From assembly GCF_003018255.1 (NCBI RefSeq), contig NZ_CP027440.1: a stretch of 64,000 nucleotides of DNA. The stretch is one strand, 5' to 3'. How positions within the stretch are numbered: the first letter of the stretch is position 1; each line of letters starts with the position of its first letter. A program made the position numbers. Below are positions 42,101-45,100 of this stretch, in pieces. Source of the stretch: Escherichia coli. Its GTDB lineage: Bacteria > Pseudomonadota > Gammaproteobacteria > Enterobacterales > Enterobacteriaceae.

Positions 42101-45100
42101 CATGAAACTAGGCGAGATATCTCAGCTTGGGTTAGGGGGAGTAGTGTCTCAAGTTCTGCGATGCGTCGTTTGTAAAACCAACGGAATAGACTTGATTTGC
42201 GTCGAGCCAGCTCGCTTTTTTGTTTTGATTCTTCGGCAAGAGCCTCTTGAAGATCTGCTTTTATCTCTGCTCTTTGTTCTCGTGCTTTAGCAATCAAATC
42301 TCGTAAAGGTAAAAGGGAGGTACTTGTAAGGACTTCTACCGAAGCGCTGGATATTTCATTCATGCCAGCTACAGGCATATATATTTTAGCGTTCGATGGT
42401 GTGTTTTCTGGAGATGACCCAGACTCCAAATGAGGTTCTGTAGGGGCTGGATTTAATGGATTGGTAACTGAGTATCCATCATCATAGGGCAAGGTAGGTG
42501 TAGTATAAGATAAGCCTGTGCCCGGTAATCCGACAGTTGCTCTAACCCCTTTTTTACCAACATTGACAGTTGCGCCAGGCACGCCAATGCTTGCACTTAT
42601 TCCACGCTTGCCAATGTTGAGTCGAACGCCAGGAAATAGAGTAAAGGTTTGTCTGAAACGAAGAGACATAAAGTTATACCTATGTAGTTTTGTACACCAA
42701 AGTTCGAAATGTTTTTATATGAATATTGAGCTGATTCATAAGATTATTCCTAGCTCATCTTCATTCCGCCATGATACAACGGTTTGCTTGCAGGTGAAGA
42801 AAAACGTAAAAGCCCAATAATGATTGGTGGGCTGGTGGAGTTGAAACCGCAGGCTCGTCGTCTGCAAGAAAGTGCTGCGGCTGGCTGGTCAGCTTCTGAT
42901 AGTGAGAATATTGAATGATTTCAAGCTGTTATCGATTTTGCGTATTTTTTGTATGGGAGGATTTGTGCCTCCTCCCATCGGTCCTCCATGACTTTACGCC
43001 ACTGTCTCTAGGGCTGCTATGTGCCAGAAGCTGACATGGCTAGTCCCTAGGCACATTGACCAGCAGGTCATCCATCCCTTAACATATCGTTATGAAATTT
43101 AAAGGATCGATGTTATGGCTTATGAATTAACTTACAGACCCCTCGAATACGGATCGAATGAAAATTATCTTCGCAGAAGTTTGAAAGACCCTTCATTACT
43201 AATTCCTGAAAAAGAGATAGGATGTTTTCTAGTTCTCCAATCCTCATATGCACTACATGAAACTATTGGACTTTCAGCCCAAAACCTAGATATTTCATGG
43301 CAGTCTAACCAAAATTACTTATCGTCAAATTGTGATGGTGAGGCCCCTCTAGCTTGTTATCCTATTTATTTGATTACAGTTGGAGATGATGAAAATGAAA
43401 GGCTTGTTTACATCGGCAAGACATCATCGAAGAGCTCACGATTTTCTTCAGGCCATAGCGCAATTACTAAGTTACACCATCCTAAATATGACAATTTGTC
43501 AAAGCGTATATATTTGTGCTGCGTTGTTTTTTTAAAAAACAGCCAAACCATCCCAATAGAATGGATTAAGCCTTTTGATTTCGCTGAGAAACTATTGAGT
43601 GAATTTGAAGCGAACTTGATTTATTGGAATAAACCAGAGTTGAATACGCAACATATGAAGAAAGAACCTACATTTGAATATGGGCAAGTTCATGCACAAA
43701 ATGTAACTGGCGCAACGTATTTTTGGCATGATAAATTCATTTAGAACTATATAAACAAAACTTGAGTTAATTCTCTATTTTCCGCACTTTTTTTCCAATG
43801 AGTTCTACATATTGGTCAAGATTGTGCTCAAGGGCGCAATAAACTTAGTATTGCGTCTGTAATTCGCTCAGACTGTGTGAAAACGGTTTAAGCTTCAGAG
43901 GTGAATGCAAAAGAGGCTGACGCCTGCGCTTTTAAGTAAAATCTGCATCATCTTTCTATGTAAATTTTCTAAGAAGTCATCTAAACGCGTGACCTTCTGT
44001 CAGCAATCAGAGTTTTCATACAGCCTGCGTTCGAAGCTGCCCTTGGGCCCGCCTATGGCAGTTGAGTGCCAGAAGCGGACATTTTAACTAATATTCAGCA
44101 TGTTTATCATTATGTCACACGCAAAATGATAAATTAATATATTCAGAGGATTTTTTAACTCAAAAATGGCGTTGTAATTCAATGAACCATGCCTATAATC
44201 TAACATAAAAATAATATATCATTGAAAGGATAAGGCTTTGAATATTTACATTGATGAGTCGATACACGAGGAGTTTGGGTTTATGATCTTGGCTTATGTA
44301 GTTTGTAATCAGGATCCTCAGTCTGATATATACAAGATTCTTTCAGAACATTCAGTTGATGAACATCACTCATGCGCAAGAATGGATAAATCTGAATCTT
44401 TAAGAAATTTGAGGAGTAATCTTATTTCCTACTTAAACGCAAATTGTCGATGGGGGGCATTTATTATGCCAAGTGAGTATCGCCATCGTTCTTATGAGGA
44501 TGTGTCTTTTTTATTAAGCTTATTGATTAAGAATTTTCCAGACAGGAAAGGGAATATTTTTTTCGATGAAGGTATCATAAACCCTACAGAAGCTCTCAGT
44601 CTATGCTCTGATGAAGTCAAAGTTATAACATGCTCATCCCATGAAGTTTGTGGGATACAACTTGCTGATCTAGTAGCATCTTTTAGTGGTGTTAGGTTGA
44701 GAGAAACAATAACAGGAAAAGCAAAAATTTTAACTTACGGTTACGACTTCGGCTATGAGCCCCCAATAGAATCCCCGCTTGGATTTGAGCTTTTTGCTAC
44801 ACTTCGACAATCTATGCTCAGGGGAAATGAACCTCTTGGGAATGAGATGCCTGAATTTGCCACATTTAAAACTATTAATAAAGGATTGGTTTTGTCGAAA
44901 AACTTAACAACTGAATTTAGTCAGTTGGCATTAAAAACCTTTGGGGAAGTGTACTTAGGTTGCATCCATTAAATGTAATATTACTATTTATCAATTACTA
45001 GCAAAATTAAGCTAGGTGTTCCTAAGAATATAGGTGACGATGATACAACTGACTTCCGCTTTTCGCTCATAACAGACATTCACTACAGTTATGGTAGAAG

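What the first reader, a model, noticed from the sequence alone, without database searches (positions are those of the whole stretch)
43115..43744. 209-aa protein with a GIY-YIG-like core
The segment IYLITVGDDENERLVYIGKTSSKSSRFSSGH has the spacing of a GIY-(x10)-YIG nuclease motif with a following Arg. A small standalone nuclease in a prophage accessory region could be a homing endonuclease remnant or a defense or toxin effector. The match is weak and by eye.
Basis: inference. Interest (0 to 1): 0.5.

Follow-up and report, generated by a model that had tools for sequence, protein, structure and literature searches.

The report
Stand-alone GIY-YIG nuclease, prophage cargo
The 209-aa ORF is a real, conserved gene for a compact GIY-YIG-type nuclease from an uncharacterised family; it sits alone in the swappable cargo slot at the end of an E. 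coli lambdoid prophage and is most likely an anti-phage DNA-cutting enzyme, though that role is untested.

Summary
The ORF (43115-43744, +, 209 aa) exists as described, and the GIY-YIG reading holds.

**Fold and active site**
- Single-sequence Pfam support is weak (PF01541, E 0.005).
- In a 45-member family alignment, Y85, Y99, G101, R109, H114, E165 and N177 are invariant.
- These are the canonical GIY-YIG catalytic set, in register with UvrC.
- It also finds 41 AFDB proteins at E<=1e-3, nearly all labelled GIY-YIG.
- The motif is PIY-x13-YIG, not GIY-x10-YIG.

**Not a remnant**
- The gene is full length and under purifying selection (dN/dS 0.08-0.24).
- Homologues occur in Proteobacteria and Firmicutes.
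- It has no homing-endonuclease DNA-binding module.
- It is absent from 50,697 phage genomes.

**Context**
- There is no conserved partner gene, methyltransferase or antitoxin.
- The gene travels as a ~0.7-1 kb AT-rich cassette between the tail-fibre module and attR (icd').
- This matches the position of mcrA in e14.
- Other strains carry HEPN or S1-peptidase genes in the same slot.
- In other genera it lies among restriction and defence genes.

Best reading: a new, uncharacterised single-gene defence nuclease. It is a new member of a known kind and of moderate interest.

The parts
43115..43744 (+). CDS of the 209-aa GIY-YIG-fold protein (RefSeq WP_039022692.1, annotated 'hypothetical protein')
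   Evidence: ORF and translation. End-to-end alignment with 209-aa homologues. dN/dS 0.24 vs Klebsiella and 0.08 vs Aeromonas. Annotation.
43361..43417 (+). Residues 83-101, P-I-Y ... Y-I-G: the beta1-beta2 hairpin carrying the two catalytic tyrosines (Y85, Y99)
   Evidence: Y85, Y99 and G101 are invariant in 45 sequences. Strands 84-89 and 96-102 appear in the model. Pfam GIY-YIG match starts at residue 83.
43439..43456 (+). Residues 109-114, R-F-S-S-G-H: putative catalytic Arg (R109) and His (H114)
   Evidence: R109, F110, G113 and H114 are invariant. R109 aligns with the UvrC catalytic Arg in the PDB profile hit.
43607..43645 (+). Residues 165-177: putative metal-binding Glu (E165) on helix 154-172, and Asn (N177)
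   Evidence: E165 and N177 are invariant. Both align with the Glu and Asn of the UvrC GIY-YIG domain. Helix 154-172 is in the model.
43115..43339 (+). Residues 1-75: family-specific N-terminal extension (two helices, a long strand 37-46 that joins the sheet, then a helix); evolves faster than the core
   Evidence: Secondary structure and single compact domain, pTM 0.88. dN/dS 0.40 vs 0.16 for the core. Firmicute members carry a ~25-aa insertion after it. No Pfam or PHROG match covers it.
43041..43114 (+). Leader that travels with the gene: sigma70-like TTGACC (43056-43061), 18 nt, TAACAT (43080-43085), and AAAGGA (43101-43106)
   Evidence: Nucleotide homology with the Klebsiella plasmid copy begins at 43041 and ends at 43760. 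Promoter-like site. Sequence.
43008..43037 (.). Repeat D3a; its 17-nt core GTGCCAGAAGCTGACAT (43021-43037) ends exactly where homology with other cargo variants stops
   Evidence: the repeat finder D3. The core is found only twice in the window, with 0.06 expected. Breakpoints lie at 43035-43037 in L012, L013 and L014.
44053..44082 (.). Repeat D3b (core GTGCCAGAAGCGGACAT, 44066-44082), the right end of the E. coli cassette
   Evidence: Homology with E2348/69 ends at 44083.
42844..43040 (.). Conserved junction element to the left of the cargo slot (a dispersed E. coli repeat)
   Evidence: 13,955 places in 5384 of 5426 genomes. It lies directly after pinE in an e14-like element and is followed by different cargo in other strains.
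40466..42669 (-). Neighbouring, independently mobile cargo module: DUF2971 protein (40466-41269; PADLOC candidate PDC-S31) and 400-aa DUF4236 protein (41467-42669)
   Evidence: The module occurs without the GIY-YIG gene in strain D97-1.
44238..44972 (+). Neighbouring cargo gene: DUF3800 protein, 244 aa, TTG start
   Evidence: Not adjacent to the GIY-YIG gene in any other genus sampled.
45438..45605 (+). icd' fragment marking the attR end of the prophage
   Evidence: Annotated as a partial isocitrate dehydrogenase. 93% identical to K-12 icdC. int and xis lie next to intact icd at the other end.

Best explanation
The ORF encodes a catalytically competent, stand-alone nuclease of the GIY-YIG superfamily, from a discrete and so far uncharacterised family of about 210-245 aa. 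The canonical core (beta-hairpin with Y85 and Y99, R109/H114, metal-binding E165, N177) is predicted to form one compact domain with a family-specific N-terminal extension and a C-terminal strand. It has no separate DNA-binding or sensor domain. The gene has no obligatory partner. It moves horizontally as a short AT-rich cassette with its own promoter-like leader, and here it occupies the variable cargo slot between the tail-fibre module and attR of a lambdoid prophage at icd. The most likely function is protection of the lysogen against other phages or mobile DNA by cutting incoming DNA, that is, a single-gene, restriction-like defence nuclease. With no methyltransferase or antitoxin present, self DNA must be spared in some other way; candidates are dependence on a DNA modification or structure, or activation on infection. 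Shown here: gene reality, family conservation, predicted fold, active-site conservation, mobility, lack of a partner and defence-rich neighbourhoods. Inferred: nuclease activity, DNA as substrate, the defence role and the basis of self/non-self discrimination.
For: Fold and active site:
- Y85, Y99, G101, T103, R109, H114, E165 and N177 are invariant in 45 homologues. Y99, G101, R109, H114 and E165 are also invariant, and Y85 and N177 >=90% conserved, in 28 of the most distant relatives.
- The only PDB profile hit is the UvrC GIY-YIG domain, with YIGK, R, E and N in register.
- Pfam's only hits are two GIY-YIG families. PHROG 'endonuclease' phrog_1111 matches at E 0.004.
- The AlphaFold model has pLDDT 91.3 and pTM 0.88.
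- Foldseek against AFDB50 gives 41 hits at E<=1e-3, nearly all 'GIY-YIG domain-containing', including proteins only 12-19% identical.

Real, selected gene:
- dN/dS is 0.24 and 0.08.
- 72 clusters span gamma-proteobacteria and Firmicutes, and there are 162 cluster representatives at 50% identity.

Stand-alone and mobile:
- No neighbouring proteins are homologous between loci.
- Homology with the Klebsiella plasmid copy covers only 43041-43760.
- GC is 32-39% in every host.
- Only 35 of 5426 E. coli genomes carry it.

Defence context:
- The same left junction is followed by a HEPN gene, an S1 peptidase or another gene in other strains.
- In K-12 e14 the equivalent position between the pin/tail-fibre module and icdC holds the type IV restriction enzyme McrA.
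- The neighbouring DUF2971 protein matches PADLOC candidate PDC-S31 at 2e-20.
- In 7 of 11 neighbourhoods sampled in other genera, restriction or defence genes lie within ~7 kb.
- 7 of 10 neighbours tested hit PADLOC models, including Ppl 7e-92, NsnA 2e-60, type IV mREase 3e-22 and DarT 6e-16.
Against: - No experiment exists, and no paper mentions the family or its accession.
- The protein matches no PADLOC or NCBIfam model.
- Sequence-level support for GIY-YIG is below threshold: best Pfam E is 0.002-0.005 and no member reaches E<=0.001.
- The defence role rests on guilt by association. 4 of 11 neighbourhoods show no defence genes, and prophage cargo slots also hold non-defence morons (iss, a porin and emrE in this prophage).
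- No mechanism for sparing host DNA can be identified.
- The E. coli protein is mildly acidic (pI 6.0).
- The Arg-bearing segment 103-114 is predicted as a loop with lower confidence, not the usual helix.
Confidence: 0.5

Rival explanations
1. A free-standing GIY-YIG homing endonuclease (or its remnant): a selfish gene that spreads by cutting genomes that lack it, with no benefit to the host.
For: GIY-YIG is a classical homing-endonuclease fold. The gene moves as a very short unit with sharp homology boundaries, 43041-43760 vs Klebsiella. It is AT-rich in all hosts, sporadically distributed, and the E. coli cassette is bracketed by a 17-nt direct repeat.
Against: The protein is a single compact domain with no Zn-finger, NUMOD, IENR1 or HTH DNA-binding module. 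hhalign to I-TevI finds nothing. It gives 0 hits in 50,697 phage genomes and only 4 in 2.9 million viral contigs. Insertion sites in different hosts are unrelated loci rather than one cognate target. It is full length with strong purifying selection across phyla, so it is not a remnant.
Confidence: 0.13
2. A nuclease toxin: either the toxic half of a toxin-antitoxin pair or an abortive-infection effector that degrades the cell's own DNA once triggered.
For: The active site is intact and there is no methyltransferase. One homologue sits near a CopG-type antitoxin gene and another near DarTG. A self-targeting nuclease needs to be held in check, and the segment around R109 is predicted to be flexible.
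Against: No small neighbouring gene is conserved between loci. The unit shared with Klebsiella contains only this ORF. The 60-aa ORF downstream (43905-44087) has no family match and lies outside that shared unit. The gene is stably carried at >=99% identity in 35 E. coli genomes.
Confidence: 0.17
3. A phage- or element-serving DNA-processing enzyme, either like T4 EndoII (host DNA breakdown on induction) or a structure-specific repair/recombination nuclease like UvrC or Slx1, rather than a defence gene.
Against: It lies in the late-end cargo slot with its own promoter-like leader, outside the replication/recombination and lysis modules. It is dispensable, since most related prophages carry other cargo there. 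It also occurs in chromosomal islands without phage genes and is essentially absent from sequenced phages.
Confidence: 0.1
4. A non-enzymatic or decaying ORF whose GIY-YIG resemblance is fortuitous.
For: Pfam match below threshold, no Foldseek-PDB hit, annotated only as 'hypothetical'.
Against: All catalytic positions are invariant. dN/dS is well below 1. There are 41 AFDB structural matches to GIY-YIG-annotated proteins, and the model is confident.
Confidence: 0.03

Closest known systems
Bacteriophage T4 endonuclease II (DenA), PDB 2WSH
   Different: No detectable sequence relationship. EndoII is a lytic-phage gene that attacks cytosine-containing host DNA. This gene is absent from sequenced phages and is carried by lysogens, islands and plasmids. 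It is 209 aa with a 75-residue N-terminal extension, whereas the solved EndoII chain is 134 residues.
Type II GIY-YIG restriction endonucleases (R.Eco29kI, PDB 3MX4; R.Hpy188I)
   Different: No adjacent methyltransferase in E. coli or in most other loci. No sequence match to PADLOC REase models.
PD-T4-3 / CMoRE, PD-lambda-1 and Uzume (known single-gene GIY-YIG anti-phage systems)
   Same: All are single genes with a GIY-YIG nuclease, found in E. coli mobile elements. CMoRE is a type IV enzyme that needs no methyltransferase (PMC12923530; 10.1101/2024.10.26.620412).
UvrC N-terminal GIY-YIG domain (PDB 1YD6 / 1YCZ)
   Different: UvrC is a universal multi-domain repair protein acting with UvrAB. 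This is a sporadic, horizontally moving stand-alone protein, and the E-value of 0.21 is not significant.
McrA of cryptic prophage e14 (positional analogue, not a homologue)
   Same: Occupies the same kind of place: a solitary nuclease gene between the tail-fibre/pin module and the icd' attR end of a prophage integrated at icd.
   Different: McrA is an HNH type IV enzyme with an unrelated fold. The junction element found here is not detectable between pinE and mcrA in K-12.

Membership tests
GIY-YIG nuclease superfamily (Pfam PF01541 and relatives) | Two conserved tyrosines ('GIY' and 'YIG') on adjacent strands of a beta-hairpin, usually 10-11 residues apart | tested here: met
   Y85 (P-I-Y) and Y99 (Y-I-G) are invariant in 45 sequences and lie on strands 84-89 and 96-102 of the model. 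The spacer is 13 residues and Gly is replaced by Pro, so this is a variant form.
GIY-YIG nuclease superfamily (Pfam PF01541 and relatives) | Catalytic Arg about 10 residues after the YIG tyrosine, usually followed by His or Tyr | tested here: met
   R109 and H114 are invariant in both the close and distant alignments. R109 aligns with the UvrC Arg.
GIY-YIG nuclease superfamily (Pfam PF01541 and relatives) | Metal-binding Glu on a helix, and a conserved Asn 12-15 residues later | tested here: met
   E165 (helix 154-172) and N177 are invariant. Both align with the Glu and Asn of UvrC.
GIY-YIG nuclease superfamily (Pfam PF01541 and relatives) | GIY-YIG alpha/beta fold | tested here: met
GIY-YIG nuclease superfamily (Pfam PF01541 and relatives) | Significant match to the family's sequence profile | tested here: inconclusive
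   PF01541 gives i-E 0.0051 and 17.5 bits. 11 of 45 and 4 of 28 members reach E<=0.1 and none reaches E<=0.001. hhalign against a single I-TevI sequence finds nothing.
GIY-YIG nuclease superfamily (Pfam PF01541 and relatives) | Divalent-metal-dependent phosphodiester cleavage | not testable with these tools
   Requires purified protein and active-site mutants.
GIY-YIG homing endonucleases (I-TevI, Seg and Mob proteins) | Catalytic domain tethered to separate DNA-binding modules | tested here: not met
   One compact 209-aa domain (pTM 0.88) with no DNA-binding Pfam domain.
GIY-YIG homing endonucleases (I-TevI, Seg and Mob proteins) | Resides in introns or between conserved genes of phage or organelle genomes, at a cognate target locus | tested here: not met
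   No tblastn hit in 50,697 phage records. Only 4 loci in 2.9 million viral contigs. Insertion contexts are unrelated.
PD-T4-3/CMoRE, PD-lambda-1, Uzume | Match to the system's PADLOC profile | tested here: not met
   0 PADLOC families at E<=1.
PD-T4-3/CMoRE, PD-lambda-1, Uzume | For CMoRE: N-terminal GIY-YIG domain plus C-terminal modification-sensing domain | tested here: not met
Type II restriction-modification (GIY-YIG REases) | Cognate DNA methyltransferase encoded next to the nuclease | tested here: not met
   None within the cargo region. Only some other loci have R-M genes nearby, of differing types.
Anti-phage defence gene (generic) | Enrichment next to known defence genes and in variable hotspots of mobile elements | tested here: met
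   The slot is variable, with alternative HEPN or S1-peptidase cargo. 7 of 11 foreign neighbourhoods hold restriction or defence genes, and 7 of 10 neighbours hit PADLOC. The sample is small and there is no formal statistic.
Anti-phage defence gene (generic) | Reduces phage plating or other DNA entry when expressed | not testable with these tools
   Needs phage challenge assays.

The most novel reading that the evidence does not exclude
This is the first recognised member of an undescribed single-gene anti-phage system. It would be a minimal GIY-YIG nuclease with no methyltransferase, no antitoxin and no separate sensor domain, telling foreign from host DNA by a means not yet known for this fold; the fast-evolving N-terminal extension may be involved. 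It would also be exchanged between lambdoid prophages as a ~1-kb cassette whose ends coincide with a conserved 17-nt joint (GTGCCAGAAGCNGACAT).
Probability: 0.3. Interest if true: 0.55.

Novelty: new member of a known kind. Interest (0 to 1): 0.4.

Why it matters
If the defence role holds, this adds a very small (630-bp) self-contained nuclease family to the list of prophage-borne immunity genes. It would also pose a clear question: how does a GIY-YIG enzyme with no methyltransferase, antitoxin or sensor domain avoid cutting its own chromosome? The locus further marks the tfa-to-attR end of icd-integrated lambdoid prophages as a swappable cargo slot with sharply defined joints, which helps when mining further defence candidates (DUF2971/DUF4236, DUF3800, HEPN, S1 peptidase). 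If the defence role does not hold, this is simply a correctly recognised but ordinary uncharacterised GIY-YIG family protein.

Tried and rejected
- **Sequence searches of the single protein.** NCBIfam and PADLOC gave no hits. The PDB search gave only noise, Hedgehog at E 0.7.
- **Transitive bridge to Pfam.** I scanned 28 of the most distant significant relatives and ran a second database search with their profile. Pfam scores did not improve, no new relatives appeared, and no precomputed Pfam domains were found. The PDB search with that profile gave only RNase H noise.
- **Foldseek against the PDB.** No significant hit; UvrC was rank 18 at E 0.47.
- **Conserved partner gene.** The similar 213/214-aa upstream ORFs in Aeromonas and Klebsiella looked promising, but all-against-all BLASTP of neighbours showed no homology between loci.
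- **Structured RNA or DUF3800-type motif.** In 40300-45700, Rfam gave only a weak tpke11 hit downstream of icd'.
- **Longer cassette-end homology.** The D1 and D3 repeats do not extend beyond 30-36 nt.
- **Junction element in K-12.** It was not detected between pinE and mcrA, so the mcrA analogy holds for gene order only.
- **Literature.** No paper mentions this family, its accession or this hotspot.
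Full report
**1. The observation**

- The ORF at 43115-43744 (+) is present and encodes 209 aa from an ATG. 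An AAAGGA Shine-Dalgarno-like sequence lies 8 nt upstream.
- Two details differ from the description. The first motif is P-I-Y rather than G-I-Y. Thirteen residues, not ten, separate Y85 from Y99.
- The Arg is R109, ten residues after Y99. This is the same spacing as in UvrC.

**2. Is it a GIY-YIG protein?**

Single-sequence evidence is weak but points one way:
- Pfam's only hits are PF01541 (i-E 0.0051, residues 83-174) and PF20815 (E 0.44).
- PHROGs gives phrog_16890 (unknown function, 9e-27) and phrog_1111 'endonuclease' (0.004).
- NCBIfam, PADLOC and a PDB sequence search give nothing useful.

The family evidence is much stronger:
- 72 clusters of homologues exist in gamma-proteobacteria (Escherichia, Morganella, Vibrio, Photobacterium, Aeromonas, Billgrantia), in Thiobacillus, and in many Firmicutes.
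- An exhaustive scan of 1.84 billion cluster representatives finds 162 relatives.
- In a 45-sequence alignment the invariant residues are Y85, E95, Y99, G101, T103, R109, F110, G113, H114, P123, E149, E165, I169, P174 and N177, plus G36 and P78.
- In 28 of the most distant relatives, Y99, G101, R109, H114 and E165 stay invariant, and Y85 and N177 stay at >=90%.
- This is the canonical GIY-YIG constellation. From established knowledge it is Y6/Y17/R27/H31/E75/N90 in I-TevI and Y19/Y29/R39/E76/N88 in T. maritima UvrC.
- The family profile's only PDB hit is the UvrC GIY-YIG domain. It is not significant (E 0.21), but YIGK, the Arg, the Glu and the Asn are aligned in register.

The structural evidence agrees:
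- AlphaFold2 with this alignment gives a confident single-domain model (pLDDT 91.3, pTM 0.88).
- Foldseek against AFDB50 gives 41 hits at E<=1e-3. Nearly all are annotated GIY-YIG, including 140-170-aa proteins only 12-19% identical to the query.

Negative or inconclusive tests:
- Foldseek against the PDB found nothing significant.
- No family member reaches Pfam E<=0.001.
- A profile search with distant members reaches no further relatives.
- hhalign against a single, verified I-TevI sequence finds nothing.

My conclusion is that this is a GIY-YIG-fold protein with an intact active site. It belongs to a sharply bounded family that current sequence profiles do not capture. A few members are already named 'GIY-YIG nuclease family protein' or 'GIY-YIG domain-containing protein' by NCBI and UniProt.

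**3. Anatomy of the protein**

- The core strands are 84-89 and 96-102, carrying the two Tyr.
- A flexible Ser-rich segment (103-114) carries R109 and H114. Its confidence is lower, and it is predicted as a loop rather than the usual helix.
- A long strand (130-141) follows, then helix 154-172 with E165, then N177.
- Family-specific additions are an N-terminal 75 residues and a C-terminal strand (192-196, consensus HIQN). The N-terminal part consists of helices plus strand 37-46, which joins the sheet.
- Firmicute members have a ~25-residue insertion after the N-terminal part.
- There is no separate DNA-binding or sensor domain.
- The N-terminal part evolves faster than the core (dN/dS 0.40 vs 0.16, E. 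coli vs Klebsiella). That would fit a role in substrate choice, but this is inference.

**4. The gene is real, mobile and alone**

- dN/dS is 0.24 (vs Klebsiella) and 0.08 (vs Aeromonas). All homologues have 32-39% GC whatever the host.
- Only 35 of 5426 complete E. coli genomes carry it, all at >=99% identity. In E2348/69 it is cut by IS3.
- tblastn finds none in 50,697 phage records. It finds seven plasmids, six of which are ~110-kb IncFIB Klebsiella replicons with phage-like genes.
- Only 4 of 2.9 million viral contigs carry a relative.
- Neighbours differ in every genus, and all-against-all BLASTP of flanking proteins shows no shared partner.
- Nucleotide homology between the E. coli and Klebsiella copies covers only 43041-43760. 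That is the ORF plus a 74-nt leader holding a TTGACC-18-TAACAT promoter-like site.

**5. The genomic setting**

- The window holds a complete lambdoid prophage integrated at icd, with int and xis beside intact icd at the far end.
- Between tfa (39778-40362) and the icd' fragment (45438-45605) lie four low-GC cargo genes:
  - a DUF2971 protein (PADLOC candidate PDC-S31, 2e-20);
  - a DUF4236 protein;
  - the GIY-YIG gene;
  - a DUF3800 protein.
- The 197 nt to the left of the gene (42844-43040) is a dispersed junction element, with 13,955 places in 5384 genomes.
- In other strains the same element is followed by a HEPN-domain gene, an S1 peptidase, or, directly after pinE of an e14-like element, another small gene. 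In each case homology stops at 43035-43037.
- That point is the end of a 17-nt core, GTGCCAGAAGCTGACAT. The core recurs once, at 44066-44082 (0.06 expected by chance). E2348/69 homology ends at 44083.
- So in E. coli the gene sits in a 1046-bp cassette whose two ends coincide with this core. Similar cores bracket other cargo in L012 and L013.
- In K-12 e14 the equivalent position between pinE and icdC holds mcrA, a type IV restriction enzyme. The junction element itself is not detectable there.

**6. Function**

- Outside E. coli, 7 of 11 sampled neighbourhoods contain restriction or defence genes within ~7 kb:
  - an Mrr-like gene;
  - Vsr, NERD and BglII;
  - type I R-M with a McrBC-like pair;
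  - a type IV HNH enzyme with a HEPN protein;
  - Ppl with DarTG;
  - DndB;
  - a GmrSD/NsnA-like gene with a BsuBI R-M system.
- The remaining neighbourhoods are on an ICE, on a phage-plasmid-like replicon, or next to mobilisation or antitoxin-type genes.
- Seven of ten neighbours tested hit PADLOC models.
- Known single-gene GIY-YIG defence systems exist: PD-T4-3/CMoRE (PMC12923530), PD-lambda-1 and Uzume (10.1101/2024.10.26.620412). This protein matches none of their profiles and has a different architecture.
- The best-supported explanation is therefore a stand-alone defence nuclease that cuts incoming DNA.
- How it spares the host is unknown. With no methyltransferase or antitoxin, the candidates are modification dependence, structure dependence, or activation on infection.
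- Rivals, in order of weight, are: an abortive-infection or toxin nuclease; a selfish homing endonuclease; an element-serving DNA-processing enzyme; and a fortuitous resemblance. Each is set out with its refuting test in the structured fields.

**7. Verdict**

'Remnant' is rejected.
- The defence role is plausible but unproven. Overall confidence in the full statement is 0.5. Confidence that this is a GIY-YIG-fold protein with a conserved active site is about 0.9.
- It is a new member of a known kind and of moderate interest.

Noticed in passing
window 42844-43040 (partial copy at 40378-40413): A ~190-nt unannotated sequence between the DUF4236 and GIY-YIG genes is a dispersed E. coli repeat, with 13,955 places in 5384 of 5426 complete genomes and up to 9 per genome. 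It lies directly after pinE in an e14-like element and acts as the left joint of a variable cargo slot. A 36-nt, 81%-identical piece sits right after the tfa stop codon, so the DUF2971/DUF4236 pair appears to have been inserted into it. It overlaps an annotated 44-aa 'hypothetical protein' (42784-42918) that has no family match.
   Followed up: partly
window 43021-43037 and 44066-44082; L013 5176-5192 and 6363-6379; L012 2189-2205 and 4178-4194: A 17-nt core, GTGCCAGAAGCNGACAT, occurs as a same-orientation pair bracketing the GIY-YIG cassette. Homology breakpoints with other strains fall exactly at its 3' end. Degenerate copies bracket other cargo genes in two other E. coli loci, and one copy abuts a tRNA-Pro gene. 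This could be a recombination joint or an att-like core; the mechanism is unknown.
   Followed up: partly
window 40466-42669 (- strand): The DUF2971 protein (PADLOC candidate PDC-S31, E 2e-20) and a 400-aa DUF4236 protein (phrog_17982, E 4e-193) form a separate two-gene module. It occurs without the GIY-YIG gene in strain D97-1, at a different prophage near tRNA-Thr. The DUF4236 gene is intact here but annotated as two fragments in NZ_CP027462.1. This is a possible two-gene defence candidate.
   Followed up: partly
window 44238-44972 (+) and upstream 43761-44237: The DUF3800 protein (TTG start) has only a weak partial PADLOC hit (PDC-M04A, first 37 residues). Published DUF3800-associated RNA motifs exist (PMC5737381), but Rfam found none in the 477-nt upstream region.
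   Followed up: partly
window ~34845-34870: Relative to the otherwise 99.9%-identical prophage of strain LD91-1, this window lacks about 2.6 kb. The deletion junction lies at a 26-bp overlap and fuses the start of tail-assembly gene I to the last ~430 codons of gpJ (ORF 34675-36132). The prophage here probably cannot make a functional tail tip.
   Followed up: partly
window 4493-5539 (-) and 5533-5994 (-): The early region encodes a eukaryotic-type Ser/Thr kinase (phrog_2361, E 1e-138). From memory, this resembles the Stk exclusion kinase of phage 933W. The adjacent gene matches a RuvC-like resolvase PHROG (1e-89). The kinase may be another prophage-borne defence function.
   Followed up: partly
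window 18857-19150 (-), 15969-17066 (-), 9756-10088 (+): The same prophage carries other morons annotated in the identical LD91-1 record: iss (serum-survival lipoprotein), a porin gene and emrE (an SMR efflux pump).
   Followed up: no
L015 (Klebsiella plasmid OW966982.1, 79339-91965): The closest non-Escherichia full-length copies (73% aa identity) are on ~110-kb IncFIB 'non-mobilizable' Klebsiella plasmids. These also encode DNA polymerase I, RecA, a Rad50-like ATPase and ribonucleotide reductase, so they look like phage-plasmids. The gene sits beside repFIB.
   Followed up: no
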